Sequence record: OL631479.1
Source of the DNA: Escherichia phage ECML-10
Direction: 5' to 3' (one strand)
DNA length: 64,000 nucleotides
Under the pieces are notes generated by a model that worked only from the letters and a program-made list of their open reading frames with translations, was not told the DNA's origin and did no database searches. The position numbers and the translations under genes are program-made. This document shows positions 2,022 to 58,512 of the stretch, in pieces; within the stretch, counting starts at the first letter, position 1; each line of letters starts with the position of its first letter.

Positions 2022-2576
2022 TTACTCCCCGCTGTCAATAGCAAGACTCATTGCAATACGGTATGCCTCTTCTAATGGTAAGAGTCTCCCCCACACATCC
2101 CAACCGACATCAAGCTGCCTGCCAAACAACTGTTGTGTGGTTCCGTGAGCATGACCGAACAGTTGGACTGATCCATGAGGCTTTCTGTTCCACTTTGCAA
2201 ACTGGTAATGGCTCATACAGATCAAATTCTTGTTGTGGCGAAGCTCGTAATAATCTACAACCTCGTGATAGAACTCTTTCATAATTCTGACAGTCGTCCT
2301 TGTGTCATGGTTGCCACGAACAAGAATAATATGTCCGTTCAACATATTTAGAATATCCGGGAGTAAGTTGTTGATATTCTTATCATTAGTGCACGCAATA
2401 TCTCCCAAGTGGAACACAGTGTCTGCAGGTGACACAACAGAGTTCCACTCGGCGATGATTCCTGCATTCATACTGTCAAGATTGTGATCATACTGAGATC
2501 TGTGTTTTTGACATGAATCAAACTCCATGACCCGCTGGTGGAGAAAGTGTGTGTCGCTTGTTACAAAGTATTTCAT
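2022..2576 (-). CDS. calcineurin-like metallophosphoesterase (protein/polynucleotide phosphatase)
   Basis: Start moved to internal ATG (MKYFVTSDTHF); motifs DxH, GDIACTNDKN, GNHD, GHAH typical of the family. Confidence 0.75.
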   Translation of the reverse strand: MKYFVTSDTHFLHQRVMEFDSCQKHRSQYDHNLDSMNAGIIAEWNSVVSPADTVFHLGDIACTNDKNINNLLPDILNMLNGHIILVRGNHDTRTTVRIMKEFYHEVVDYYELRHNKNLICMSHYQFAKWNRKPHGSVQLFGHAHGTTQQLFGRQLDVGWDVWGRLLPLEEAYRIAMSLAIDSGE

Positions 2577-2583
2577 ACATTCC

Positions 2584-2994
2584 TCATTTAAGTTTAATGC
2601 AGTTTTTAAGCTGGCGTTCCATACGATCCACAACCCTGTCTGGAACATCATGAATGCTTTTATTACCGTGGCGGTTTTCAACCACGATCACGGTATAACT
2701 ATACCCATGACTGATTGCCATGTCAATATATTCTTGCACATGTTTTTCTTTTGTAAACGTATTACTTACCACGATACGGTCGTATCCCATACGCATCATA
2801 TCTTCTACGTTATCTTTGCACCATTTTGCTGCAAGTGTTACTTTACTTGCATCCCAGTTGTAATTTCCGTCATCGTCGTACCAGAACATGTCGTTCTCAA
2901 AATGTGGATACAGACCTTCTAAAGATAGAGCATTTGCCAGTGTTGATTTGCCAGACCCTGGTATACCACGCACGATATATAGCATTTTAGACAT
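2584..2994 (-). CDS. polynucleotide kinase-like P-loop kinase (T4 Pnkp kinase-domain homolog)
   Basis: Start moved to ATG 2994 (SD GGGGGA); P-loop GIPGSGKST, RIVVSNT and HDVPDRVV align with T4 Pnkp N-terminal kinase domain. Confidence 0.65.
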   Translation of the reverse strand: MSKMLYIVRGIPGSGKSTLANALSLEGLYPHFENDMFWYDDDGNYNWDASKVTLAAKWCKDNVEDMMRMGYDRIVVSNTFTKEKHVQEYIDMAISHGYSYTVIVVENRHGNKSIHDVPDRVVDRMERQLKNCIKLK

Positions 2995-3112
2995 AGCAAT
3001 CCCCCGTTTTAATTTTAATGATAGTATACCTAACTGTTTTGTTAATTTCAAGTGTTGACACTAGGTTGTTTGTGTGGCAGGATAGACTGACAAAATGACA
3101 AATGAGGAACGT

Positions 3113-4030
3113 ATGATGAAGTATTTTAATGCAGACGATCTAGTTGACAAAGGTCTTGTAACCAGTCGATATTATCCAGATCTTGGATTAAAGATCTATA
3201 AATATGCCAGAAAAGTATTCTACAACAATCTGTGGCATTTGTCCCCTCGTTTGCTGGAGTGCCGAGGCATTGTTGTCGGTAATGAAGGAAATGTTGTGGC
3301 ATGGCCCTTCACAAAAGTGTTTAACTTGGGAGAAAATCACACCAACCTGCCTGACAATAAGCTTGTGACGGCGGTAGAGAAAAAGAACGGATTCCTCGGC
3401 GTGGTGTCATCTCATAAAGGTGAACTATTGTTCTCAACAACCGGATCTCTTGATTCCCCATATTGTAACCTCGCAAAGGAAACCATCCGGGAGCAATGTG
3501 GTAATTTAGATCTTATCAAGAAGGTTATGGGCAATGAAAACATGACATTCATGTTTGAAATTTGTCACCCTTCAGATCCGCATATTGTTCAGGAAGATCA
3601 TGGCGCATATTTGATAGGTTGCAGATATAATGATTCTGGAATAATGCTGCCAGAAGCAGCTTTAGATGGGATTGCCAAATACCTTGGCGCAAAACGTCCT
3701 CACACTGTGCGTGAAATTCCGTTCAGCTATGCAAAAGAATTGGCTGCAGAAACAAGAGGTGAAGGGTATATGATTCGTAAGCCTTACTACCCTTATGATC
3801 TGCAGCTGAAGATCAAGTCTCCATACTATCTGGCACGGAAGGCCGTAATGAGGGGTAAAGCTTGGAAGATTTGGGATGATGATATCTTTAAACGTGTTGA
3901 CGAAGAGTTTTACGGCATGGTAAACTTCATTCGTAGCAATTACACAGAAGATGTGTGGAACTGCCTACTGGAGCAGGAACGCAGGGAGATACTCGACCAC
4001 TATTTCCACAACGAGGACTATATGCAATGA
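3113..4030 (+). CDS. RNA ligase, Rnl1 (T4 RnlA) type
   Basis: ECRGI, FNLGEN, KxNG (EKKNGFLG) lysine motif, EGYMIRK and LKIK match T4 Rnl1 motifs; start set to ATG 3113 (SD GAGGAA). Confidence 0.8.
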   Translation: MMKYFNADDLVDKGLVTSRYYPDLGLKIYKYARKVFYNNLWHLSPRLLECRGIVVGNEGNVVAWPFTKVFNLGENHTNLPDNKLVTAVEKKNGFLGVVSSHKGELLFSTTGSLDSPYCNLAKETIREQCGNLDLIKKVMGNENMTFMFEICHPSDPHIVQEDHGAYLIGCRYNDSGIMLPEAALDGIAKYLGAKRPHTVREIPFSYAKELAAETRGEGYMIRKPYYPYDLQLKIKSPYYLARKAVMRGKAWKIWDDDIFKRVDEEFYGMVNFIRSNYTEDVWNCLLEQERREILDHYFHNEDYMQ

Positions 4031-4377
4031 AGAAGTTGATTGTGTGGCTGGATGATTTGAGAGATCCGTCAAATTATGGACTCCCAGACGCTGTTTGGCT
4101 GAAGAATTCCTCCGAGTTTATGGATTTTATTAACGATAAGGGAAAGCTCTACAGACGCGTTTCTGAGTGGCATATGGACAACGACTTAGGAGAAGTATTC
4201 GAAGGATATGATTGCCTATCCATGTTGGAGGAAAAATTTGTATTCGGTAAGCCTCCAGTGGTTGACAACGTGAAGATTTTCGTACATACTTCTAATCCAT
4301 CAGCGGCTCGTAAATTCATGCTTGCAGCTGACTCGTTTAAAAAGTTTGGAATAGAGATTAAACAAAACATCTACTGA
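4027..4377 (+). CDS. hypothetical protein (117 aa)
   Basis: ATGA start/stop overlap with RNA ligase; WLDDLRDP, HMDNDLG and HTSNP conserved-looking motifs, family not recognised. Confidence 0.55.
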   Translation: MKKLIVWLDDLRDPSNYGLPDAVWLKNSSEFMDFINDKGKLYRRVSEWHMDNDLGEVFEGYDCLSMLEEKFVFGKPPVVDNVKIFVHTSNPSAARKFMLAADSFKKFGIEIKQNIY

Positions 4378-4385
4378 GGACACTT

Positions 4386-5147
4386 ATGCGACGACTGATT
4401 ATTATCTCCGGTGCTGGTTTGAGCGCTGAATCTGGTATTCCCACTTTCCGATCTGGTAGCACTGCAATGTGGGAGAATTTCAGCATCGATGAGGTGTGCA
4501 ACATCCACACCTTTGCCAAGAACTACTATAAGGTGCATGACTTTTACAATGCACGTCGTGTAGCTCTGGGCAGTGTTGATCCTAACCTTGCACATCTTCG
4601 GATCGCTGAGTGGTATTCCCGCTGGTCTGGTCGTGTGATCAACCTTACCACCAATGTAGATGATTTGCTGGAGCGTGCTGGTGTAAAACATGAAGATATT
4701 TTACATGTCCACGGGTATTTGCCTGAAATCACCTACGAAGATGCTGAAGGTAATGATGTAATTAAAAATATCGGATACACGGAGGTAGATACAGGTAAGT
4801 ATACCTGGGTTAAGCCCAATGTAGTGTTCTTCGGTGAGGTTGCTCCTAAGTATACAGACATGTATGACCTGTTGACATCTCTCACAAGCAATGATATGGT
4901 GATCCTGGTAGGTTGTTCTAACACAGTTATTAATTTTAACTGGGAATTGTTTCCTGCTACTTGTAAAGGCACAAAACTGCTGATTGTAAACAAGTATGAT
5001 TCGCAGAGTGCAGATGGAAGTGGCATTTCACGTAGCGACCTTTATCAATATGAGGATCGCGGGATCCCTGTATGGTTTAACGGTGCTGTTGACGCTTTCT
5101 CTGATAAAGTATTTATTGAAACTGTAGAAAACTTTATGGAACTTTAA
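4386..5147 (+). CDS. SIR2-family NAD-dependent deacylase/ADP-ribosyltransferase
   Basis: Sirtuin signature GAGLSAESGIPTFRSG near N-terminus and HVHG catalytic His motif. Confidence 0.75.
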   Translation: MRRLIIISGAGLSAESGIPTFRSGSTAMWENFSIDEVCNIHTFAKNYYKVHDFYNARRVALGSVDPNLAHLRIAEWYSRWSGRVINLTTNVDDLLERAGVKHEDILHVHGYLPEITYEDAEGNDVIKNIGYTEVDTGKYTWVKPNVVFFGEVAPKYTDMYDLLTSLTSNDMVILVGCSNTVINFNWELFPATCKGTKLLIVNKYDSQSADGSGISRSDLYQYEDRGIPVWFNGAVDAFSDKVFIETVENFMEL

Positions 5148-5160
5148 AAGGAGACCTTTA

Positions 5161-5874
5161 ATGCTGAATACTAAACTGATCGACAACCTGGAAAAACTGT
5201 CTCAGCCTGAAAACTACCTTTGGTCTGCCAACTGGGTGGAAAACTGGAACCGTGTGGCAGCTAAGGTGAAAAAATCATACACACCATTCGAATTACAGCT
5301 TAGCTTCATTGAGGAAGAGTTCAATGAAGTTTTGGAAGAGCTGGAGAAAGGTGATGGTGGAGATCACTTGCTAAAAGAGGCCTGCGATCTTCATGTTGTC
5401 ACAAGTTATGCCGCTTATCTTGTTAATGACAATCACGAAAAGTGGTCAAACCTGTTTGATAATCCACGAGGTATTAAGTTCAAGATTGGTGAGTTCTATG
5501 ATACACTGATCGCTGCGAAAAACACCTCTAAGCAAAGAGCGTCTGCTTACCGCTTAGCAGAGTTGTCAACAGCTTTGCTGTTCCAGCTTCGCGGTGATGT
5601 GTGCGGGATGATGCGTAAGGTTCTCAAATCGAATGACAGCAAGTTTGCACGGGTCAACCATCTACGGTATTCACACGGTGCCAGTGCAGATATGCCTGCT
5701 GAACAACTCATCGAGTTGGAGATTAAAGATCTTGAGCGACGCTTTGATGGTCGATATGAAGGTTTTGTTGCCAAGGAAGAATTCTACAACGGTAATAAAG
5801 TTATCATATTCCTTGACAGTAAAGGTAAGATCATGAAGCCTTCAAGCTTCAAGGATGTAACAGAGTATATTTAA
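5161..5874 (+). CDS. hypothetical protein; possible MazG-like NTP pyrophosphohydrolase N-domain
   Basis: ORF track; SD AAGGAG; EEEFNEVLEELEKGDGGD resembles the MazG/HisE EExxE..D motif (tentative). Confidence 0.5.
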   Translation: MLNTKLIDNLEKLSQPENYLWSANWVENWNRVAAKVKKSYTPFELQLSFIEEEFNEVLEELEKGDGGDHLLKEACDLHVVTSYAAYLVNDNHEKWSNLFDNPRGIKFKIGEFYDTLIAAKNTSKQRASAYRLAELSTALLFQLRGDVCGMMRKVLKSNDSKFARVNHLRYSHGASADMPAEQLIELEIKDLERRFDGRYEGFVAKEEFYNGNKVIIFLDSKGKIMKPSSFKDVTEYI

Positions 5875-7912: not shown

Positions 7913-8410
7913 ATGAAACTTGATAAAAATGTTCAACGAAAAGCTTTCTTGGATCTTATTGGCTGGGCAGAGGGAACAACAACCCACCCTGCCACCAAAT
8001 GTGGAGGATACGATGTTGTAGCATACGGGATGGACGGAAAACCTGAAATCTTTACAGATTTTTCTACGCACCCTTTTGCAAACGGTCGCCCTGGTAAAGT
8101 GTTTAACTCAAAAGGGCAAAGAACTACAGCCTGCGGTAAATATCAATTTCTTGTCAAATACTGGGAACACTACAAAAAACAGCTTAAGTTGCCGGATTTT
8201 GGACCAGATAGCCAGGATAAGTGGGCAATCCAGTTGATCAGGGAACGTAAAGCACTTGAAGACATAGATAACGGTCATATTAAATCTGCTATACGTAAGA
8301 CCTCAAATATTTGGGCTTCGTTCCCATACAACCAGTACGACCAAAATCCAAAAACCATTGACAAGTTGCTTAAGAAATTTGTAGAGTTTGGAGGTGTTGT
8401 TCTGGATTAA
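7913..8410 (+). CDS. endolysin, lambda R-type lytic transglycosylase
   Basis: KAFLDLIGWAEGT, GYDV, FTDFSTHP, YQFL, SNIWASFP align closely with lambda R lysozyme. Confidence 0.9.
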   Translation: MKLDKNVQRKAFLDLIGWAEGTTTHPATKCGGYDVVAYGMDGKPEIFTDFSTHPFANGRPGKVFNSKGQRTTACGKYQFLVKYWEHYKKQLKLPDFGPDSQDKWAIQLIRERKALEDIDNGHIKSAIRKTSNIWASFPYNQYDQNPKTIDKLLKKFVEFGGVVLD

Positions 8411-8418
8411 TGATCAAA

Positions 8419-8446
8419 AGGTAGGCCACTCGCCTACCTTTCTACA
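8419..8446 (+). terminator. possible terminator hairpin
   Basis: AGGTAGGC-CACTC-GCCTACCT followed by TTCTAC (weak U tract). Confidence 0.35.
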
Positions 8447-8464
8447 CCAGAGGTGTGTTGAGAT

Positions 8465-9226
8465 ATGAAGATACATTTCTTTTTTAATGATCACTATCCT
8501 TATTGGTACAAGGATGGTGATCTAATCTTTTGGAAACCTGGCTACAGTAGGAATGGAAATAGGGCTGGACACTACAACAAAAAGACTGGATATTTCCAAG
8601 TGTACAATAAGCTGACAAATGTTAAACGTGGCAGACATAGGGAAATTTTTGACATGTTTTACGGATGTGTCACAGATACTTGGCATATCGATCATATCGT
8701 CTCTAAGAAAAATTCTACTAACGGAGTGCCTGTAGACAAGATAGAAAACCTTCAAATGTTGAAGCCTTGGGATAACTACTGTAAGAGAGCCTTGGAAAAT
8801 GTGCAAAGCAATAACACCTCTACAGTGACTGGTGTGGTATGGCTGAAAAGAGAGGGTAAGTGGAGGGCAAGTAGAAGGATAAATAGGGTAAATGTTAGGT
8901 TGGGAGATTTTGACACTTTCGAAGAGGCTAAGTCTAGGGTTGAATGGTCAATAGCCAACCCGGAAGAGGCTTTAAAGATAGTTCCAAACCCGCACAAGAA
9001 TAATATCCTGCCAGGTATTGATTGGTCTAAGAAAGATACCTGTTGGAGGGCACGAGATAACAAAGGAAGAAACTTAAGATGCTTCAACGACAGGAAGTGG
9101 CTAAATCCGTGGTGGGAGGCAGTTTGTGCAAGAAAGTCTTGGGAAGTAAACTGTCTCTACGGAGGGATGTCACTAACTGAGTGGAAGTTATCCAGAGGCT
9201 ATCCAAGACCTTGTGTTGAGGATTGA
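8465..9226 (+). CDS. HNH homing endonuclease with AP2-like DNA-binding domain
   Basis: HIDHIVSKKNSTNG...NLQML HNH motif; GVVWLKREGKWRASRRINRVNVRLGDFDTFEEA AP2-like. Confidence 0.75.
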   Translation: MKIHFFFNDHYPYWYKDGDLIFWKPGYSRNGNRAGHYNKKTGYFQVYNKLTNVKRGRHREIFDMFYGCVTDTWHIDHIVSKKNSTNGVPVDKIENLQMLKPWDNYCKRALENVQSNNTSTVTGVVWLKREGKWRASRRINRVNVRLGDFDTFEEAKSRVEWSIANPEEALKIVPNPHKNNILPGIDWSKKDTCWRARDNKGRNLRCFNDRKWLNPWWEAVCARKSWEVNCLYGGMSLTEWKLSRGYPRPCVED

Positions 9227-23681: not shown

Positions 23682-24483
23682 ACCTCTGTCAACGGTTAAC
23701 AAACTGGCCGTTGTAAAACTCTCCTAACCTCATAAGAGGGGTCGGTAAATCCGGCTAACGGGGAACGCTAAGGCGAAAGCTATGCCAATCCCGTGACTAG
23801 TTCTTACAGGAGTTGGAACGGTTGTAACGACTAACGAAAGGCAGAGATGCTTGACAAACATTTCTGAACCAAGTAGTGTAGGGGTTAGTTGAAATACTAA
23901 CTTCGAAATGGAGAGGCTCTATGAAAAAGATCATTCTTAATGGTGAAGAATCAAACTATGTGATTGATGAGGTTGGAAACGTATACGGAAAACGTGGAAT
24001 GCTACACCCAATATTGTGGGGAGGTTATGGAAAAGGTAACAAGCATGTTAAACGCCGTTATATGTACTCTTTCAACCACAAAGGTAAAAAGATTCGAATC
24101 CAAACCTCAAGGATTGTTGCCTTGTATTGTTTGCCGGATGTCCCAGAAGACCCTGAAAACTGGGAAGTGAATCATAAAGATGGCAATACATTGAATGATC
24201 ATCCGTCTAACCTAGAGTGGGTTTTGCCGGAAGATAATAAGAGACATGCTTTCCGAACAGGACTTTGTCCAGGTAAGTGCTATAGGAAAGTGCAGGCATA
24301 CAAAGGGAAAACCTTGGTGGGTGAATATCCTTCACTCTATGCCTGTGCAAAAGCCTTAAATTTGAACGTAGGTAACGTTCATAGGGCTATCGAAGGAAAT
24401 GCCGAAGGTAAGCATCTCACAATAAAGGGTTATTATCTTATTGAAGTAGAGTAAGAGATAGTCTGGCCCTGTGGAAACACAGG
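23682..24483 (+). mobile_element. probable group I intron interrupting nrdD (boundaries approximate)
   Basis: About 800 nt between two nrdD halves whose products align contiguously with E. coli NrdD; contains a free-standing HNH ORF; exon 1 would end in T and the proposed intron in G. Confidence 0.5.
23921..24454 (+). CDS. intron-encoded HNH homing endonuclease
   Basis: VNHKDGNTLNDHPSNLEWV HNH motif; NUMOD-like YVIDEVGNVYGKRG; SD GGAGAGG. Confidence 0.7.
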   Translation: MKKIILNGEESNYVIDEVGNVYGKRGMLHPILWGGYGKGNKHVKRRYMYSFNHKGKKIRIQTSRIVALYCLPDVPEDPENWEVNHKDGNTLNDHPSNLEWVLPEDNKRHAFRTGLCPGKCYRKVQAYKGKTLVGEYPSLYACAKALNLNVGNVHRAIEGNAEGKHLTIKGYYLIEVE

Positions 24484-25756
24484 GAGGAGACAGCAGACTC
24501 CATTCATCACATTAAGTTTAGGACTGGATACCTCGGTCTTTGGTAGAATGATTACCAAAAACTACTTGAAAGTCCACAAAATGGGTCTTGGTGAAGAACG
24601 TATCACACCTGTGTTCCCTAAAGTGCTGTTCTTCCTAGAAGAGGGTGTCAACATGAACCCTGGAGATCCTAACTATGATTTGAAACGATTAGCTCTGGAA
24701 TGCTCTGCAGAGCGGATTTATCCTGACTTTGTTTCTGTTCCACTAAATCGTAAAGTGACAGGCTCGACAGATGGTAAAGTAACGAGCATGGGTTGCCGGA
24801 GTTTTCTTAGCAAATACAATGACTTGGAAACAGGCGAGGAGAAATACCTTGGTAGATTTAACTTAGGCGTTGTTAGCCTTAACCTGCCAATGATTGCGGC
24901 AAAAGCTAAGACGGAAGGTGTTGATTTCTTTGCCGTTCTTGACGAGTATCTGGATTTGGCATATGAAGCTCACCTTGTAAGGGTTAACCGTCTGAAAGGC
25001 ACCAAAGCAGGGCAGAACCCTATCATGTGGTGTGAAGGCGCTCTTGCTCGCCTGGATCCTGAAGAGAGTATTGATAAACTCTTCTATGACGGGTACGCTT
25101 CCATCAGTATTGGGTATATTGGTGTGTATGAAACCTGTCAGATTTTGGGCAGGGAGGGTGACAAGGCTTTAGCTCTTGGAATACTTCAGCACATGAGAGA
25201 TGCTTGTGAGCGATACAAGAAGGAAAGTAGACTAGCGTTTAGCTTGTACGGCACCCCTTCTGAGAGTCTATGCTATAAAGCTGCAACCTGTCTGGATCGT
25301 GAATATCCTGAAGTGTTGAAGCACGAGCATGAATATCTCACCAACAGTTTCCATCAGCCAGTATGGATCAATAGCTCTCCTTTTGATAAGTGGGAGTATG
25401 AGGAAGGTTTTGCTATGATCTCCTCTGGTGGCAACATCGGATACGTAGAGACACCAAATCTGAAAAACAACTTAGATGCTTTGGAAGCTCTTGTTGATTT
25501 CGGATATAAACACATTATGTATTTTGGTATCAACCAGCCTGTGGATAAATGTCTCAAGTGTGGTTTCTCTGGTGAGTTCAGTGCAACAGCTAAAGGCTTT
25601 GTATGCCCAGAGTGCGGAAACCATGAAGAGGGAACGATCAGCGTAATTCGACGTGTGTCTGGATACCTTTCCAGTCCTAACTCTCGTCCTTACAATAAAG
25701 GTAAGCAAGCGGAAGTTATCGAGCGAGTTAAGCACTACGGAAGTTGTGGTTGCTGA
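24484..25756 (+). CDS. nrdD: anaerobic ribonucleotide reductase NrdD, exon 2 (5' boundary approximate)
   Basis: GLDTSVFGRM...EEGVNMNPGDPNYD aligns with E. coli NrdD; C-terminal Zn ribbon and glycyl-radical motif RVSGYL. Confidence 0.7.
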
Positions 25757-25822
25757 TACTTGACAAAAGCCACAAGGATGTGGCACACTTAGTTCAAAGA
25801 TTAGAGCTAAGAAGGTTCAGCA

Positions 25823-26950
25823 GTGTCCAGAAAACTTACAACAGATGAGTTTATAAAGAGGGCAAAAGCAGTTCATGGAGATAAGTATGATTACTCTAAG
25901 GTTGAGTATGTAAATGCCTGCACCAAGGTTATAATTATCTGCCCATATCATGGAGAATTTGAACAAGCTACCCACCAACACCTTGCAGGACGAGGCTGCC
26001 GGGAATGTGGAAAGCTAAAAATGGCACAAAGCCACATTATACCACATAAGGAGTGGTTGAATGTTATCCAAGAGGTCAATCCTTATGTCGAAGTGATTGG
26101 AGAAATAATAAGCTGCAGAACAAAAGTGCCGTGCCGCTGCAAAATTTGCAGTCATGAATGGTCAGCAATGCCTTATCTTCTTAAACAAGGACATGGGTGC
26201 CCTAGATGCGGCAAGCTAAAATTCGCACAAAGCAGAGCTATAGCCCATACCGAGTGGGTCGAGGACATAACGAAGAAAAATACATATATTGAAATAGTAG
26301 AAAGGGTTAAAAATAGCGATACACCAGTATTGGCACGATGCAAAATTTGTAGTCATGAATGGTTAGCAAGACCATCCCATCTTAAACGAGGGCATGGGTG
26401 CCCTAGATGTAAAGGCAATGCAAAGAGATCCCATGTGGAATGGGTAGGGCATATAAAGGTTGTCAATCCAAGTATTAAAGTGCTTGGAAAAATTAAAAAC
26501 GGCAGTGCAAAAGTATTATGTAGGTGTAAGATTTGTGATTATGAATGGTCTCCTGCTCCTATTAGGCTCAAGCAAGGACATGGGTGCCCTAGATGTGCTA
26601 ACTACGGCTTTTTATCGTACAATCACGGCAAACTTTACATTATGGTTGATGACTTAGAAGTACCAACACTTATGAAGATCGGTATTAGCGTCAGTGTCGA
26701 AGAGAGAAAAGATAGGATATTGAAAAGTGCCAAAAGGGCAGGGGTAGGTATTTATGATCTCTACCTGGCGAAAACGTGGGAAGGATCAACTCAAAACATG
26801 GCAGATTTAGAAAAATCTGTGCATAAGGCCTTCAGCAAGTATAAAATAAACTTCCCTGTAAAATTTGATGGTAGCACAGAATTCTTCTACTACAGGCCTG
26901 AAGTGTTTGACACGGTGGAAGAAGTATACAGGAAGATTTGTGGTAAATGA
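25823..26950 (+). CDS. T5orf172-domain (GIY-YIG superfamily) putative homing endonuclease with four N-terminal Zn-ribbon repeats
   Basis: Four CxxC...GHGCPRC modules; C-terminal KLYIMVDD...LMKIGISVSVEERKDRI resembles the T5orf172 domain; GTG start. Confidence 0.6.
   Translation: MSRKLTTDEFIKRAKAVHGDKYDYSKVEYVNACTKVIIICPYHGEFEQATHQHLAGRGCRECGKLKMAQSHIIPHKEWLNVIQEVNPYVEVIGEIISCRTKVPCRCKICSHEWSAMPYLLKQGHGCPRCGKLKFAQSRAIAHTEWVEDITKKNTYIEIVERVKNSDTPVLARCKICSHEWLARPSHLKRGHGCPRCKGNAKRSHVEWVGHIKVVNPSIKVLGKIKNGSAKVLCRCKICDYEWSPAPIRLKQGHGCPRCANYGFLSYNHGKLYIMVDDLEVPTLMKIGISVSVEERKDRILKSAKRAGVGIYDLYLAKTWEGSTQNMADLEKSVHKAFSKYKINFPVKFDGSTEFFYYRPEVFDTVEEVYRKICGK
26104..26610 (+). repeat. intragenic tandem repeats (about 190-200 nt period) encoding the Zn-ribbon modules
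   Basis: Near-identical stretches GCAAAATTTG(C/T)AGTCATGAATGG and GGACATGGGTGCCCTAGATG recur three times. Confidence 0.6.
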
Positions 26951-27002
26951 TCGTAGAAAGATATGCATATCTTAAATATGCTATTAACTAAGGAGGTTCA
27001 GT

Positions 27003-42748: not shown

Positions 42749-44329
42749 CACACAATTAGCTGCCCGGCTAAAGTGCTGGAAGCACCTATAACACATCTTT
42801 CAACTAAATTTCCCACCACCACAATCACTTACCTCCCACACATGACTGTTTGCTTGTTTAGTGAGCAGTCATGCCTTGACATTCTTGCCTATCCTGATAA
42901 AATTAAGTTCTTCTCTTTTCTTTTACCGAGTAATTCGGGTTTTCTGTTCTCTTCGGTTTGAAGGGGTATGGAGATACACCTGAGTGAACAGGGTGAACAA
43001 CCGAACATTTGGCTATGGCATTAGCATGGCGAAGCGGACGGGTGACGAAAGAGGGGCCGGAGGACACCAGTCACTGCCATATGATATATGGGTGATAACC
43101 TGAAGAGTCTGAATAAGTGTTTAAGTACCAGTCAGAGGAAAAGGTGAATGGTAGCCGAAGGGGGAGGGGGTTTCTTGTATCTTTAATTTGTATATTATGT
43201 ATACATTCGTAAACCAATCTCATCTGAATCTGTTTACCACACAAAGTGGATAGAGACAAATATTACCTATTAAACTTGAATTATTTATAGAAAATACTAC
43301 AACACTACTTAAGTATTTGATTTTACACACAAATCCTGCAGATATTCACCCCCCATATTTAACATACTTGTAACATATTCCATACTCTACCTGACCGATC
43401 AACTCACCCAACTACATCCTCCATATTTCCCCTGTCTGTACTACCCCTGCCCAGCCGGGAGTCCCGTCATATCTGGCTTTCCAGCAAATATCACACCCAC
43501 AAATATCATTGCCTGAAGAGGGTTTCATCCCATAATACATGCCTTACCTGAAGAGCGCTTCATATACCCCGTAAATTTTTTAATTGACACCCTCCCCGCC
43601 GCCGGAGGGGGTTGGCTTTTCCCACACAGACCCGAAGAGCCAGCCAGAAATATCTGAACAGGTCCAGCTATGCCACGATTTTGACCTGACCTACAGGAGT
43701 GCTTCCCTGTCAGGAGCCGGTAGCGACTGGAGTGCTGCCAGGCGGACGAAATGGGAATACTTCTCATTCTTATAATAATTCTCAAATATCGAGGCAGTGA
43801 GGCAAATTAATAGGTGAGGCCGTTCACACAGTGGCACAACATTTGCAACCTATCTTGTGTGGGGGAATGAGAATACCTATCATTGTGAGAATAGTTATCA
43901 TTACGGGCAATTTAACATAATACCCATTATGCGCACCACTGGCGATCCATACAGGGATTGATAACATGAGTTACTGTTTATGCATATAACAATTATATTT
44001 CTTACTATTTGTGTGGGATATAGTTAGCAGCCAATAGATTAGATATTGACCTGTAGACTTCTGACCGTCCAGACGTCTAAACGCCCACACAACAAGGCTT
44101 ATACATACATCGCTGAATGTAAACAGGGCCGCAAAAATGCTACCATACCAGATTGTAAATTTTTCATACAGCACTTGACAAAGAGGAGAAAAACTTGTCT
44201 GACACTTTAGACACAATAGTGACATAATGGTGACACACTGGGCATACTCAACACACTGGATACAATAACAGTTGTTACTATTGCATGCTTCACTGTTCAC
44301 GTATAGATTGTTTACACAGAGATGATAAG

Positions 44330-44620
44330 CCATGCCATTCGTTTGCATGACAATAATTAACTTGTTTACAATCTTTCACTGGCTATGCCAGGTGACCTTT
44401 GGTCACCCCTTCGGGTGTTTCTATGACATAATATAAAAGCAGGGCAACTATTAGAAGATCTATAGTTGCCTTGCTTGTTATGTCACGATTAACTAAATAC
44501 AAGGCAACTATGATCTGATTAATAGTTTGCAGACAAACTATCACGGGGGTGATGGTTACTGCTTTTATATTATGTCGCGACTCCGTCGCGCCATGCCATT
44601 CGTTTGCATAGTTGCCTTAT
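44330..44620. repeat. complex of direct and inverted repeats (GGCAACTAT iterons, 18-bp inverted pair, CCATTCGTTTGCAT direct pair)
   Basis: GGCAACTAT/ATAGTTGCC four times; GACATAATATAAAAGCAG at 44424-44441 with reverse complement at 44561-44578; CCATTCGTTTGCAT at about 44334 and 44596. Confidence 0.55.
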
Positions 44621-45234
44621 TGTTACGAATAAAACAATTGCATTGTTAATGATTTCTTATCTTTCTCTTAGTCATCTAATGATTCCAGTCAGTATAGTAA
44701 TGTACAGTAAACATTAGACGACTAAAGATTTCTCTGTTTATTATAACTCACCGTTATAATTTCGAGCTGTTTACGAAAAATGTTGACATCCTAGCCGATT
44801 TATGTTATGCAGTTTACACGAATAATTATTTTATGCAGGTATTGACTATTCCGTTATTCTATGGTTGGAATAAATACTTAGCAGGCTATAGACTGGTGAG
44901 CGTACGTAAATTCTGAGATCTGGCGGCTATAGTTATACTCGATTTTTCACGTAGAACACGCTTTTGTGGTTATGTAAGTGCATGAATTATAAGAATTTTT
45001 ATTTGTTGACAAGATATTGAAGATATGCATCAGGTTAAAATTTATGCAATAGCGGCATTACGTGCAATTTTGGAAGGAAAAGCGTGTAAAAATGGCCCTG
45101 CTACCACACAATGAAAGGTTATGCAATAGCTATTTTACATGTATATTTGTACAGTGTGTGGGATTGATGGCTCGTCAATTATTCCACTTGCCAGGTAGGG
45201 CCGTTTGTGGTAGGAAAAGAGAAGACAAAAAGAA

Positions 45235-45251
45235 AGGGGCTTTAAGCCCCT
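45235..45251 (-). terminator. rho-independent terminator for minus-strand block
   Basis: AGGGGC-TTTAA-GCCCCT; minus-strand reading is followed by TTTCTTTTT. Confidence 0.55.
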
Positions 45252-45270
45252 GACCGTTCATCTTGTTGTA

Positions 45271-56289: not shown

Positions 56290-56352
56290 AATACGTCGCT
56301 CTCTGTTAGTCTGTGCGTATATTATACACTGTAGTTTTCAGATGTCAATCTT

Positions 56353-56547
56353 TTACAGGTTACTCCAGTATGCTCGGCATTTACATTTCGGGCAATGAGG
56401 CTCTTTTATGTAATAACCATCAGTCTTTGGAACACTTTTTGGTGCAGTTTTAAGATTGTACCGAGTAAAACACCGGAAGCAGGTTACCTCTCCAACCTGT
56501 TGATCGTTTATCCACTCGCCAGAGTAAAGCTCTCTCTTGTTTCTCAT
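56353..56547 (-). CDS. small zinc-ribbon protein
   Basis: Start moved to ATG 56547; CFRCF...CPKCKC Cys cluster. Confidence 0.45.
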   Translation of the reverse strand: MRNKRELYSGEWINDQQVGEVTCFRCFTRYNLKTAPKSVPKTDGYYIKEPHCPKCKCRAYWSNL

Positions 56548-56576
56548 AATTCTCTCCCAAATCCTCTGCAATCTTA

Positions 56577-56744
56577 TACCAAAATCTCCAGCCAGAAAGC
56601 ACACGGGAACACTTTGATGATTGAATCTTTACCTGGTTCAGCAGTTCTTTTTCCGTAGGGTAGGTAGAAATACCCTCCTGCAGATTCGAACACAGCCCCT
56701 TCGGTTGTATCTATCACAGCCAGAATTAAGATTTTAGTCTCCAT
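56577..56744 (-). CDS. 55-aa hypothetical protein
   Basis: SD GAGAGGGAG before ATG 56744; below track cutoff. Confidence 0.35.
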
Positions 56745-56797
56745 AGTGCTCCCTCTCTCAATCGTTGTGGTGACTATACCATCTCAAAAACCAGCTG

Positions 56798-57256
56798 TCA
56801 ACACTTTTTGTACTCCACCACGATAATATTCATATCAAAAGTGGCAAGGTTAATAACGTCCTCTACGTGCTCCCACTTCAAACCGCCTATGCCGCACCCG
56901 ATCTTAGGGATGTAGAATGGTAAAGTCGATCCACTGAATACCTCATTGACTAGCTCAAAGCCTTTCAGGATTGAGAAATATTCAGCATTAGGCCCTGGGT
57001 AGAACTGAGTATACAGATTGATTCCGTAGACAATACCTCTCGGAGATAAGTGCTCCCATCGGGAGAACGCACCCAGTTTACTTAGGCAACCATATCTAGT
57101 CTCTTTGTCAGCTGCCAATGCTTGAGGGAACTCACGGGAAATCTGTTTTGCTATCCCCTTGCCCATTGTGTGGAAGCAGTTACAACCGTGGATCAGGTGA
57201 CCAGCACCGCTCTTAAAAAGGGAGATTAAATCTCCCTCTACAGTATCAATAATCAC
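56798..57256 (-). CDS. macro-domain protein (ADP-ribose binding/processing)
   Basis: EGDL, HLIHGCNCFHTMGKGIAKQI and PKIGCGIGGL match macro-domain motifs; start set to GTG 57256 (SD AGAGGAG). Confidence 0.6.
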   Translation of the reverse strand: MIIDTVEGDLISLFKSGAGHLIHGCNCFHTMGKGIAKQISREFPQALAADKETRYGCLSKLGAFSRWEHLSPRGIVYGINLYTQFYPGPNAEYFSILKGFELVNEVFSGSTLPFYIPKIGCGIGGLKWEHVEDVINLATFDMNIIVVEYKKC

Positions 57257-57671
57257 GGTATGCCAGCTCCTCTTCCGCAATTTCAAAAAACTCAGTCCAG
57301 CACTGTGGCATATTGGAGTTACCGAAGTGGCTTTCATAGTAAAGGTTCTCACCACTTGGAAGATAGAAATCTGTTACCTCATAGAATCCACAATCGTCGC
57401 ACTCGCCTTCTTCAAACTTAGCCTCAACCTTAATACCGAGGAAGGTGAAAAGTTTATGGATATCTTCAGTTTCGAACTCCCAGTGAATGTTGTTTTCCGC
57501 ATCGGTGTAGAACTGGATCAGCAGACCATTGTCCAGTTTACCAAAATACTCTGTGAAGTAACTTCCTTCCCAGAAATCTTTATGACAAATAATATCCATG
57601 CGTTTGCCCATAATAATGGTGTGAGCGTTTTGGGCATCGTCACGAATCAGTTTTGGCATTTCATAGATCAT
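57246..57671 (-). CDS. hypothetical protein (141 aa)
   Basis: SD GGAGAA before ATG 57671. Confidence 0.55.
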   Translation of the reverse strand: MIYEMPKLIRDDAQNAHTIIMGKRMDIICHKDFWEGSYFTEYFGKLDNGLLIQFYTDAENNIHWEFETEDIHKLFTFLGIKVEAKFEEGECDDCGFYEVTDFYLPSGENLYYESHFGNSNMPQCWTEFFEIAEEELAYRDY

Positions 57672-57937: not shown

Positions 57938-58033
57938 GGGCAGTGGCCTCCTGTTAGCTATACATCCCAGTTTTCTTCGTTCATCACGTCCTCCCGTTCT
58001 ATGAAGTTATAATTGCACACCTTTCAACCTGTG

Positions 58034-58450
58034 TCAACAGAAAACTTCAACAAATTCTTCCACAGTTTTAATGTCGTGGGAAAAAGGTTTACGGCTATAG
58101 CGGGCAATAGCACTATCAACCACCGCCCGGTACTCCAAATCTTCAGAATATTTCATGAAGCATTGCAGCGTCTCTGGGCAGATAGCTAAATAGCTCCACC
58201 ACCCCTCTTCAGATTGGTAGTCGAATCCCATACTCTCCAACCATGAAGCATATACTCCTGCACCCTCTAGCCAGTGGGTATTTTCATCAAGAAATTTATT
58301 CACCGACATGTGTGCTTCCAGGCACTCGTCAAGCTCTTTTCCGTTAACCAGCCATGCACTGACTGTGGCGCATCCGAGGTCTACAGATTGAGTTGGCAGG
58401 TTGTATTGGTCATAGTTCTCAGGTTTAACAATGATATCTTCTAATGTCAT
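58034..58450 (-). CDS. hypothetical protein (138 aa)
   Basis: SD AAGGAGA before ATG 58450. Confidence 0.55.
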   Translation of the reverse strand: MTLEDIIVKPENYDQYNLPTQSVDLGCATVSAWLVNGKELDECLEAHMSVNKFLDENTHWLEGAGVYASWLESMGFDYQSEEGWWSYLAICPETLQCFMKYSEDLEYRAVVDSAIARYSRKPFSHDIKTVEEFVEVFC

Positions 58451-58512
58451 TTTTCAGATCTCCTTATACAAAAATGCCCCACCCTTTCGGGCAGGGCTAT
58501 GTTAGTTAGGTG

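What the first reader, a model, noticed from the sequence alone, without database searches (positions are those of the whole stretch)
56798..57256. Macro-domain protein with start overlapping the upstream gene
Motifs HLIHGCNCFHTMGKGIAKQI and PKIGCGIGGL fit the macro-domain ADP-ribose pocket. The most plausible start is a GTG with a strong SD, 11 nt inside the upstream gene. Together with the SIR2 gene this suggests the phage handles ADP-ribose-type modifications, for example reversing host ADP-ribosylation or processing ADP-ribose 1''-phosphate.
Basis: partly seen in the sequence, partly recalled or inferred. Interest (0 to 1): 0.55.

Follow-up and report, generated by a model that had tools for sequence, protein, structure and literature searches.

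The report
Phage macrodomain, likely anti-DarT2 enzyme
This is a real, already-annotated macrodomain gene of an rV5-like coliphage whose closest studied relative (phage T4 Tk.4/AdfM) protects T4 from the DNA-ADP-ribosylating DarTG2 defence, so it is most likely an ordinary member of a recently recognised class of phage counter-defence enzymes.

Summary
Minus-strand ORF 56798-57256 encodes a 152-aa macrodomain: Pfam Macro is above its threshold, the AF2 model has pLDDT 96.6, and TM is 0.72-0.85 to TARG1, Poa1p and DarG. The GTG start, with GAGGAG 10 nt upstream and an 11-nt overlap of the upstream ORF, is supported because the same codon is ATG in relatives of 68-81% identity. The window comes from a JES2013-like Vequintavirus. 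GenBank records already call this gene "macro domain protein", "phosphatase" or "O-acetyl-ADP-ribose deacetylase".

The protein is a Gln-type ALC1-like macrodomain. Q84 sits where DarG K80 and SCO6735 Q85 sit. Its closest characterised relative is T4 Tk.4 (39% identity, E 6e-41), which a 2025 preprint showed is needed for T4 to resist DarTG2. Next comes Adpp of Vibrio phage Gary (34% identity), an ADP-ribose-1''-phosphate phosphatase that works with NARP1, but this phage has no NARP1.

Best reading (about 0.5): an early counter-defence enzyme that removes ADP-ribose from thymidines modified by DarT2. Main rival: an ADPR-1''-P phosphatase, possibly finishing the predicted sirtuin/cREC RNA-repair pathway. 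The Sir2 link is not obligate, since T5 has the Sir2 and no macro. Verdict: new member of a known kind, low to moderate interest.

The parts
56798..57256 (-). Macrodomain CDS, 152 aa plus TGA stop. It is a Tk.4/AdfM-type, Gln-class ALC1-like macrodomain.
57254..57256 (-). GTG start codon. The same codon is ATG in relatives of 68-81% identity.
   Evidence: public annotations
57267..57272 (-). Shine-Dalgarno GAGGAG, 10 nt upstream of the GTG. It is embedded in the coding sequence of the upstream ORF (codons E-E-E-L).
   Evidence: an RBS is annotated at the equivalent place in phage LL12
57246..57256 (-). The 11-nt overlap between the macro start and the end of the upstream ORF (GTGATTATTGA).
57246..57671 (-). 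Upstream ORF of 141 aa (phrog_8157, function unknown). It is probably co-transcribed or translationally coupled here, but it is not a conserved partner.
   Evidence: in L012/L013 its homologue lies elsewhere and in L014 it is absent
57179..57181 (-). Codon of Asn26. It is invariant and equivalent to DarG N22 and SCO6735 N27.
   Evidence: mutagenesis data in PMC9411070 and PMC13309987
57149..57163 (-). Loop 1, G32-K-G-I-A36, the phosphate-binding GxG loop.
57005..57007 (-). Codon of Gln84. It is invariant in 59 homologues and occupies the position of the catalytic Lys80 of DarG, Lys84 of TARG1 and the essential Gln85 of SCO6735.
   Evidence: (register counted from the printed alignments)
56882..56902 (-). 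Loop 2, I119-G-C-G-I-G-G125, the diphosphate/distal-ribose loop.
58009..58037 (-). Sigma-70-like promoter candidate (TTGACA-17-AATTAT, TG-extended) that could drive ORFs 57937-57740, 57671-57246 and the macro gene. This is a consensus match only.

Best explanation
The gene encodes a small stand-alone macrodomain ADP-ribosyl hydrolase of the Tk.4/AdfM type. It is probably expressed early, from host-type promoters, as part of a block of small genes. Its most likely job is counter-defence. When the host toxin DarT2 attaches ADP-ribose to thymidines in single-stranded phage DNA and blocks replication, the enzyme binds the ADP-ribose in its pocket (loops GKGIA and IGCGIGG). It then cleaves the ribose-C1''-to-thymine bond, releasing ADP-ribose and restoring the DNA. 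The chemistry would follow the Gln-type mechanism described for SCO6735, in which Asn26 positions Gln84, Gln84 positions the distal ribose, and a water molecule does the chemistry. It would not use the Lys mechanism of DarG and TARG1. Shown here: the gene and its start, the fold, the conserved pocket residues, and the homology ranking. Shown by others: T4 tk.4 is required against DarTG2, and SCO6735 hydrolyses dT-ADPr DNA. Inferred: that this Vequintavirus protein does the same, and that it is an early gene.
For: (1) The closest characterised homologue is T4 Tk.4: 39% identity over the full length, 121 bits, E 6e-41. It shares the motifs HGCNCFHTMG, NLYTQF-PGPN and the glycine-rich loop 2 (IGCGIGG here, IGAGIG in Tk.4), and has the same loop lengths. 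The Vequintavirus clade scores 121-132 bits against Tk.4, 60-74 against Adpp and 26-30 against PhiKZ AdfM. BFVD's second-best viral hit is a 'tk.4' protein with TM 0.88. (2) In the HIDEN-SEQ preprint, tk.4 was the single transposon hit conditionally required under DarTG2, and a clean knockout sensitised T4. (3) The Gln-type macrodomain SCO6735 hydrolyses DarT-made dT-ADPr DNA and requires Gln85 and Asn27. The equivalents here, Q84 and N26, are invariant in 59 homologues. (4) Like T4, this phage lacks NARP1. tblastn with Adps and Namat against the window and the whole JES2013 genome gave best E-values of 0.35 and 6.4, while controls gave 1e-15 to 1e-38 (annotation). The Adpp-type pathway role is therefore unavailable. 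(5) T5 is DarTG2-sensitive and has no family member anywhere in its genome. (6) The gene sits in a block of small minus-strand genes with consensus sigma-70 promoters, which is typical of early or anti-defence regions.
Against: No experiment exists on any Vequintavirus protein. 39% identity does not guarantee the same substrate. A member of the same family at 34% identity, Adpp, is a proven ADPR-1''-P phosphatase. For Tk.4 only the phenotype is shown, not DNA de-ADP-ribosylation. The protein lacks the longer lysine-bearing 'mobile loop' (K89, K94) that helps SCO6735 act on DNA; its loop is 5 residues shorter and has no Lys. By my own count of its sequence it is near neutral in charge (14 Lys/Arg, 15 Asp/Glu). 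Iyer et al. argued from genomic context that phage Macro domains mostly target soluble ADPr derivatives. Macrodomains are promiscuous in vitro.
Confidence: 0.5

Rival explanations
1. It is an ADP-ribose-1''-phosphate phosphatase (Poa1p/Adpp activity) acting on a soluble metabolite. The substrate could come from host RES-type NADases (aRES). It could also come from the phage's own predicted NAD+-dependent RNA-repair module: the sirtuin acting like KptA yields ADPr>P, cREC opens it to ADPr-1''-P, and the macro converts that to ADPr.
For: The protein is 34% identical (E 5e-20) to Adpp of Vibrio phage Gary, which converts ADPR-1P to ADPR in vitro and is required for NARP1-AP to overcome aRES. Adpp also has the N-x-Y-x-Q motif. 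Poa1p is among the best structural matches, and its H23 is conserved here. The window encodes the rV5-type sirtuin neighbourhood of Metallophos, kinase, Rnl1-like ligase, cREC and SIR2, which Iyer et al. predict generates ADPr>P. They noted that no Macro gene lies adjacent. PHROG 335 and RefSeq call the family 'phosphatase'.
Against: There is no Adps or Namat in the genome, so dephosphorylating ADPR-1P cannot rebuild NAD+. The protein is closer to Tk.4 than to Adpp and lacks Adpp's 7-residue insertion after the Gln. Sir2 and the macro are distributed largely independently: T5 has the Sir2 and no macro, and macro-bearing Pseudomonas, Acinetobacter, Aeromonas and T4-like phages are not in the Sir2 hit lists. 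Gary has the ligase, kinase and phosphoesterase genes but no Sir2 or cREC near Adpp. The two genes are 52 kb apart on opposite strands. The sirtuin pathway itself is only a prediction.
Confidence: 0.25
2. It removes ADP-ribose from another macromolecular or small substrate. Candidates are ADP-ribosylated proteins (Glu/Asp-linked, as for TARG1 and SCO6735), ADP-ribosylated RNA or phosphate ends, O-acetyl-ADP-ribose made by the phage Sir2, or an ADPr-derived immune signal.
For: TARG1/OARD1 is the best structural match, with TM 0.78-0.85. SCO6735 also de-modifies PARP1. One GenBank record names the protein O-acetyl-ADP-ribose deacetylase. A genuine SIR2 gene is present. Macro domains are versatile at the 1'' and 2'' positions.
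Against: The TARG1 catalytic Lys/Asp dyad is absent, with Gln at the Lys position. There is no obligate co-occurrence with Sir2. No ADP-ribosyltransferase partner is evident in the window. No homologue has been shown to have any of these roles in a phage.
Confidence: 0.15
3. It neutralises a defence protein stoichiometrically, or merely binds or sequesters ADP-ribose derivatives, without needing catalysis.
For: Catalytically dead SCO6735 Q85A still inhibits DarT by interaction. Other Adf proteins (AdfA, AdfB) act by binding DarT.
Against: There is strict conservation of residues needed for catalysis in SCO6735 (N26, Q84, H23 and the glycine loops) across homologues down to about 33% identity. 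There is no extra domain; the protein is 152 aa of macro fold only.
Confidence: 0.05

Closest known systems
T4 Tk.4 = AdfM (anti-DarT factor Macrodomain; HIDEN-SEQ preprint, bioRxiv 10.1101/2025.11.20.689424)
   Same: It is full-length homologous (39% identity, E 6e-41) and of similar size (155 vs 152 aa). It is also a stand-alone macro with the motifs HGCNCFHTMG and NLYTQF-PGPN, a glycine-rich loop 2 (IGAGIG in Tk.4, IGCGIGG here) and Gln at the catalytic position. It sits in an early small-gene region of a large virulent coliphage, and that genome also has no NARP1.
   Different: It comes from a different phage family (Straboviridae vs Vequintavirinae) and has different neighbours (tk/vs vs phrog_8157 and the Zn-binding ORFs). 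The DarTG2 phenotype is shown only for T4.
Adpp of Vibrio phage Gary (NARP1-AP; bioRxiv 10.64898/2026.01.28.702374)
   Same: It belongs to the same sequence family (34% identity, E 5e-20; PHROG 335). It shares H-x-C-N-C-F, the N-x-Y-x-Q motif and the IGCG-x-GG loop.
   Different: Adpp sits between Adps and Namat and works with them, and this phage has neither. Adpp has a 7-residue insertion after the Gln. Its proven substrate is the small molecule ADPR-1''-P.
SCO6735 (Streptomyces coelicolor) and BT1257: Gln-type ALC1-like macrodomains
   Same: These are the top profile hits in the PDB at 61 bits. The equivalents of Gln85, Asn27 and His are conserved. SCO6735 hydrolyses dT-ADPr DNA and protects against DarT.
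   Different: They are bacterial and only distantly related (about 23% identity in the structural alignment). SCO6735 has a 5-residue longer mobile loop with the DNA-contacting Lys89 and Lys94, which is missing here.
DarG2 antitoxin and chimallivirus AdfM (PhiKZ gp104; PMC13309987)
   Same: They share the macro fold and the Asn and glycine loops, and they carry out the anti-DarT2 function proposed here.
   Different: They use a catalytic Lys (the FPTK motif), where this protein has Gln. DarG has a C-terminal DarT-binding domain and an adjacent darT gene, and both are absent here. PhiKZ gp104 is only 23% identical (27 bits), and it scores 133 bits on the PADLOC DarG model against 48 for this protein.
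Yeast Poa1p and human TARG1/OARD1
   Same: They are the best structural matches (TM 0.72-0.85). Poa1p His23 is conserved here in the same H-x-C-N-C context.
   Different: They are eukaryotic. TARG1 uses a Lys84/Asp125 dyad, which is absent here. Poa1p F152 corresponds to Gly124 here.

Membership tests
Macro domain superfamily (Pfam PF01661) | Profile match above the curated threshold | tested here: met
   27.4 bits against a gathering score of 22, E 3.4e-6. PHROG 335 gives E 8e-59.
Macro domain superfamily (Pfam PF01661) | Three-layer alpha/beta/alpha macro fold | tested here: met
   The AF2 model has pLDDT 96.6 and pTM 0.91. Foldseek gives TM 0.72-0.85 to TARG1, Poa1p, DarG, BT1257 and SCO6735.
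Macro domain superfamily (Pfam PF01661) | ADP-ribose pocket: a conserved Asn plus two glycine-rich loops | tested here: met
   N26, G32-x-G34 and G120-x-G122-x-x-G125 are invariant or nearly so in 59 homologues.
T4 Tk.4 / AdfM-type phage macrodomain | Full-length homology with shared motifs and loop lengths | tested here: met
   39% identity over 153 aa, 121 bits, E 6e-41; alignment; bit-score matrix.
T4 Tk.4 / AdfM-type phage macrodomain | Required for phage growth in the presence of DarTG2 | not testable with these tools
   This is shown only for T4. No report was found for Vequintavirinae.
T4 Tk.4 / AdfM-type phage macrodomain | Hydrolysis of thymidine-linked ADP-ribose on ssDNA | not testable with these tools
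   It is inferred even for Tk.4. It is shown biochemically for SCO6735 and PhiKZ AdfM.
Adpp / NARP1-AP | Homology to the validated Adpp | tested here: met
   34% identity over 141 aa, E 5e-20.
Adpp / NARP1-AP | Encoded in an operon with Adps (Prs-like) and Namat (Nampt-like) | tested here: not met
   No Adps or Namat homologue is present in the window or the complete JES2013 genome (annotations). Compare the Gary and VPMCC14 layouts.
DarG2 antitoxin | Catalytic lysine (K80 in T. aquaticus DarG) | tested here: not met
   Gln84 aligns with the Lys of the FPTK motif. I counted the register from the printed alignments.
DarG2 antitoxin | C-terminal DarT-binding domain and an adjacent darT gene | tested here: not met
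   The protein is 152 aa of macro fold only. The NCBIfam antitoxin_DarG model scores 46 bits against a cutoff of 250 and covers positions 3-139 of 338. The neighbours are small phage ORFs.
SCO6735-type (Gln-class ALC1-like macrodomain) | Gln at the catalytic-Lys position, held in place by the conserved Asn | tested here: met
   Q84 and N26 are invariant and align with SCO6735 Q85 and N27.
SCO6735-type (Gln-class ALC1-like macrodomain) | Extended mobile loop with DNA-contacting lysines (K89, K94) | tested here: not met
   There is a 5-residue gap after Q84 relative to SCO6735, and the sequence FYPGPNAEY contains no Lys.
Sirtuin-Macro pair (SirTM/Macro-type operon) | Macro gene adjacent to and co-distributed with the sirtuin gene | tested here: not met
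   Sir2 lies at 4386-5147 on the plus strand, 52 kb away. T5 has a 57%-identical Sir2 and no macro. The two genes show different distributions among phages.

The most novel reading that the evidence does not exclude
The Gln-type orphan macrodomain may be bifunctional, or may serve as the missing last enzyme of the predicted sirtuin/cREC NAD+-dependent RNA-repair pathway of rV5-like phages (ADPr>P to ADPr-1''-P to ADPr). In that case one small enzyme would both clear the by-product of phage tRNA repair, or of host RES NADases, and erase DarT2 marks on DNA. The natural Q84K variant in a T4-like relative (L014) hints that the family can switch between Gln and Lys chemistries.
Probability: 0.12. 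Interest if true: 0.6.

Novelty: new member of a known kind. Interest (0 to 1): 0.3.

Why it matters
If the Vequintavirus protein is an AdfM, the Tk.4-type (Gln-class) macrodomain would be a widespread anti-DarTG2 factor. tblastn finds the family in about 2,800 of 50,697 phage records, spanning T4-like, FelixO1-like, Ackermannviridae, Pakpunavirus and rV5-like phages. That is relevant to choosing therapeutic phages, such as rV5-like O157 phages, against DarTG2-carrying hosts. The same family also contains a proven ADPR-1''-P phosphatase (Adpp). Working out what determines substrate choice in near-identical pockets, and what the roughly 90% of members not linked to NARP1 actually do, is a modest but real open question.

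Tried and rejected
(1) I tried the DarG-model score as a discriminator. PhiKZ AdfM scores 133 bits on the PADLOC DarG model, against 48 for the window protein and 45 for Adpp, which at first suggested the protein was not DarT-related. I rejected this because the genetically validated T4 Tk.4 scores only 36 bits.
(2) I tried ranking PDB relatives by profile score. BT1257, SCO6735, DarG, TARG1 and Poa1p all fall within 54-61 bits, so this gives no subtype assignment.
(3) I searched for NARP1 partners and found none.
(4) I searched for a NADAR (AdfN) companion among 76 window ORFs and found none.
(5) I tested the upstream ORF as a conserved functional partner and rejected it. Gene order differs in L012/L013 and the ORF is absent in L014.
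(6) I tested obligate Sir2-macro coupling and rejected it.
(7) I checked whether Gary's Adpp lies next to Sir2 or cREC. Only the ligase, kinase and phosphoesterase genes are shared.
(8) Rfam at gathering thresholds found nothing in the window.
(9) Two literature searches were badly framed and returned noise. The Poa1p structure paper is not in the library, so the Poa1p catalytic residues are known to me only from PDB entry titles (H23A, S30A, F152A).
(10) I rejected the alternative longer starts (GTG 57355, ATG 57337). They would overlap the upstream gene by 92-110 nt and add an N-terminal extension that no homologue has.

Full report
OBSERVATION. The feature is a minus-strand ORF. The start is GTG at 57256-57254. 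GAGGAG lies at 57272-57267, 10 nt upstream, which is a good core with spacing at the long end. The upstream ORF (57246-57671, minus strand, 141 aa) ends with TGA at 57248-57246, so the two genes share 11 nt. The mechanical ORF runs on to GTG 57355. A start there or at ATG 57337 would overlap the upstream gene by 92-110 nt and add an extension that none of 59 homologues has.

The strongest evidence for the start is comparative. In five related viral contigs the same codon begins the protein. It is GTG with the same overlap at 91% identity. It is ATG with a 4-nt ATGA overlap at 81%. It is ATG with its own SD, 12-19 nt after the upstream stop, at 74% and 68%. Four GenBank and RefSeq annotations use the identical 459-nt CDS.

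WHERE IT COMES FROM. The window is 95-98% identical to Vequintavirus (rV5-like) coliphages such as JES2013. In those records the gene is already called 'macro domain protein', 'phosphatase', 'macro domain-containing protein' or 'O-acetyl-ADP-ribose deacetylase'.

WHAT THE PROTEIN IS. Pfam Macro scores 27.4 bits against a gathering score of 22, and PHROG 335 'phosphatase' gives E 8e-59. NCBIfam and PADLOC DarG models match only over the macro part and far below the family cut-off. An AlphaFold2 model built on 59 homologues is very confident, with pLDDT 96.6 and pTM 0.91. It matches TARG1, Poa1p, DarG, BT1257 and SCO6735 with TM 0.72-0.85. This is the ALC1-like class of macrodomains.

A family profile scores all of these within 54-61 bits, so score alone does not assign a subtype. 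The alignments are informative at one position. The invariant motif N80-L-Y-T-Q84 aligns with N-M-I-G-Q of SCO6735 and BT1257, and with N-F-P-T-K of DarG. Counting the register from the printed alignments, Q84 occupies the place of the catalytic Lys80 of DarG (Lys84 of TARG1) and of Gln85 of SCO6735. In SCO6735, Gln85 and Asn27 are both essential, and the enzyme removes DarT-made ADP-ribose from thymidine in DNA by a water-mediated mechanism without a lysine (PMC9411070). N26 and Q84 are invariant in all 59 homologues. So are the glycines of both pocket loops, and H23 is nearly so. This pattern argues for an active enzyme and against a mere binder.

WHICH CHARACTERISED PHAGE PROTEINS IT RESEMBLES. 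Three phage macrodomains now have experimental support.

(i) PhiKZ gp104 'AdfM' is a Lys-type, DarG-like enzyme that removes DarT2 marks from DNA (PMC13309987). The window protein is only 23% identical to it, at 27 bits.

(ii) Adpp of Vibrio phage Gary is a Poa1p-like ADPR-1''-phosphate phosphatase encoded between Adps and Namat. It lets NARP1 rebuild NAD+ after cleavage by the aRES defence (bioRxiv 10.64898/2026.01.28.702374). The window protein is 34% identical to it, E 5e-20.

(iii) T4 Tk.4 was named adfM in the HIDEN-SEQ preprint. It was the only transposon hit conditionally required under DarTG2, and a clean knockout sensitises T4 (bioRxiv 10.1101/2025.11.20.689424). The window protein is 39% identical to it over its full length, at 121 bits and E 6e-41.

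Tk.4 shares the Gln motif and the loop lengths, whereas Adpp has a 7-residue insertion after the Gln. In an all-against-all comparison, the Vequintavirus proteins score 121-132 bits with Tk.4, 60-74 with Adpp and 26-30 with PhiKZ gp104. Among predicted viral structures, a 'tk.4' protein of Acinetobacter phage 133 is the second-best match at TM 0.88. The closest studied relative is therefore Tk.4.

CONTEXT TESTS. The Adpp role needs NARP1. Neither Adps nor Namat is detectable in the window or in the complete reference genome (best E 0.35 and 6.4, with positive controls at 1e-15 to 1e-38). None is annotated either. The macro is therefore an orphan, as in T4.

The family is very common: tblastn finds it in 2,814 of 50,697 phage records. 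The aRES preprint found a Macro gene beside only 15% of 859 NARP1 operons in 20,185 genomes. Most family members are therefore orphans. That comparison is my own rough inference across two datasets.

T5 is sensitive to DarTG2 and has no family member. Four macro queries by tblastn and the family HMM against the six-frame translation of all 121,750 bp found nothing, while the T4 control hit at 1e-51. This agrees with the anti-DarT2 reading, but it rests on only two phages.

THE SIR2 QUESTION. The Sir2 gene is real (4386-5147, plus strand; PF02146, 98 bits). It sits in a cluster of Metallophos phosphoesterase, AAA_33 kinase, Rnl1-like RNA ligase, cREC domain protein, Sir2 and a further ORF. Iyer, Burroughs, Anantharaman and Aravind described exactly this 'phage V5' neighbourhood. 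They predicted that the sirtuin acts like KptA/Tpt1 on RNA 2'-phosphates, producing ADPr>P that cREC or others process further. They also noted that no Macro gene is adjacent (PMC9503650).

The distributions argue against an obligate link. This Sir2 type is mostly found in T5-like phages. T5 has a 57%-identical Sir2 but no macro, cREC or ligase homologue. The many Pseudomonas, Acinetobacter, Aeromonas and T4-like macro carriers do not appear in the Sir2 lists. In Gary, Adpp lies two genes downstream of the ligase, kinase and phosphoesterase genes, but no Sir2 or cREC is nearby. I keep this as the main rival and as the most novel reading that remains open.

LOCAL ANATOMY. The upstream ORF (phrog_8157) is not a conserved partner. 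Its homologue lies elsewhere in L012/L013 and is missing from L014. The 11-nt overlap is therefore a clade-specific junction and not a sign of functional coupling. In the T4-like contig L014, the macro (68% identity) is followed directly by a 77%-identical homologue of the small Zn-binding ORF (56353-56547; PF23903). This points to a small cassette exchanged between phage families. That L014 protein carries Lys in place of Q84. Of the 92 database homologues, the 82 with a genuine motif match all keep Gln; the other 10 gave no match or a spurious match elsewhere in the sequence. Consensus sigma-70-like promoters lie on the minus strand at 58037-58009, 56801-56773 and 56348-56321, and a terminator-like hairpin lies at 58497-58476. 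This is compatible with early transcription by host polymerase, but these are pattern matches only.

MECHANISM AND CONFIDENCE. My best-supported account, at about 0.5, is an early-expressed Tk.4/AdfM-type hydrolase that removes ADP-ribose from thymidines modified by DarT2, using the Gln/Asn/water chemistry of SCO6735.

Shown here: the gene, its start, the fold, the conserved pocket, the homology ranking, and the absence of NARP1. Shown by others: the tk.4 phenotype, and the SCO6735 and PhiKZ AdfM biochemistry. Inferred: transfer of function across 39% identity, the expression timing, and the chemistry.

Several points count against this account. Adpp shows that the same family can be a small-molecule phosphatase. 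The protein lacks SCO6735's lysine-bearing DNA loop. For Tk.4, DNA de-modification has not been demonstrated.

The rivals are: an ADPR-1''-P phosphatase (0.25), another ADPr substrate including OAADPr (0.15), and a non-catalytic binder or inhibitor (0.05). These are not strictly exclusive, because macrodomains are promiscuous.

NOVELTY. The gene is annotated in public records, the family is large, and a close relative has a published phenotype in a preprint. No Vequintavirus member has been tested. I therefore rate it a new member of a known kind, of low to moderate interest. The open points are what sets substrate choice within this family, and whether the orphan members connect to the predicted sirtuin RNA-repair module.

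Noticed in passing
window 2022-5874: This is the rV5-type 'sirtuin RNA-repair' neighbourhood predicted by Iyer et al. 2022. It comprises a Metallophos phosphoesterase (2022-2681, -), an AAA_33/Zeta-like kinase (2584-3051, -), an Rnl1-like RNA ligase (3095-4030, +), a cREC_REC domain protein (3955-4377, +; PF20274, E 2.7e-14), SIR2 (4386-5147, +) and an ORF with no Pfam hit (5161-5874, +; annotated as a nucleotide pyrophosphohydrolase in JES2013). The ligase, kinase and phosphoesterase have 38-43% identical homologues just upstream of the NARP1-AP operon in Vibrio phage Gary.
   Followed up: partly
window 23696-24492: A 797-bp insertion relative to JES2013 lies exactly inside the anaerobic ribonucleotide reductase gene nrdD. 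It carries an HNH endonuclease ORF (23921-24454; PF13392) and a sub-threshold match to the group I intron model (RF00028, 24197-24484, 27.7 bits, E 8.8e-5). It is probably a mobile group I intron, as in T4 nrdD.
   Followed up: partly
window 25786-26990 and 7955-9220: There are two further insertions relative to JES2013. One holds a 375-aa ORF with T5orf172, CapR and treble-clef zinc-finger domains (25823-26950). The other holds a 253-aa ORF with a weak AP2 domain hit (8465-9226). Both look like free-standing homing-endonuclease-type mobile genes.
   Followed up: partly
window ~42750-45270: A gene-poor stretch of about 2.5 kb lies between the convergent plus-strand and minus-strand gene blocks. 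It is AT-rich (36% GC at 44400-45200) and has clustered GGCAACTAT/ATAGTTGCC direct and inverted repeats and an 18-nt perfect inverted repeat (44425-44625). The HIDEN-SEQ preprint reports that the equivalent ~2 kb intergenic region of the Vequintavirinae phage Bas54 tolerates no transposon insertions. It may be a replication origin or another essential cis element.
   Followed up: partly
L014:3001-3637 (IMGVR_UViG_2974573495_000001, 165-kb T4-like contig): This macro homologue is 68% identical to the window protein and has Lys in place of the otherwise invariant Gln84 (NLYTKF). It is followed immediately by a 77%-identical homologue of the window's Zn-binding ORF (56353-56547). This suggests a macro plus Zn-binding cassette exchanged between Vequintavirinae and a T4-like phage, and a natural Gln-to-Lys switch at the catalytic position.
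   Followed up: partly
window 56773-56801, 56321-56348 and 58476-58497 (minus strand): Near-perfect sigma-70 consensus promoters are present. One is TTGACA-17-TATAGT with a TG extension, overlapping the macro stop codon. Another is TTGACA-16-TATAAT, a 12/12 match. A strong terminator-like hairpin (GCCCTGCCCGAAAGGGTGGGGC followed by a T-run) lies upstream of the macro transcription unit.
   Followed up: no
L009:4001-4479 (Vibrio phage VPMCC14): The NARP1-associated macro gene (Adpp type) between the Prs-like and Nampt-like genes is split over three reading frames. Either it is a pseudogene or the record has sequencing errors. The close relative P018-4 has it intact.
   Followed up: no
literature (no coordinates): The name AdfM is now used for two macrodomain proteins that are only distantly related in sequence: the Lys-type PhiKZ gp104 (Cell Rep 2026) and the Gln-type T4 Tk.4 (HIDEN-SEQ preprint 2025). 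They score only 21 bits against each other. This may cause annotation confusion.
   Followed up: yes
L019-L021 (phage T5, complete genome): T5 encodes a Sir2 that is 57% identical to the window's Sir2 (56447-57265). It has no detectable homologue of the cREC, RNA ligase, kinase or phosphoesterase genes that surround Sir2 in the Vequintavirus. The sirtuin therefore occurs without the proposed RNA-repair partners in T5.
   Followed up: partly
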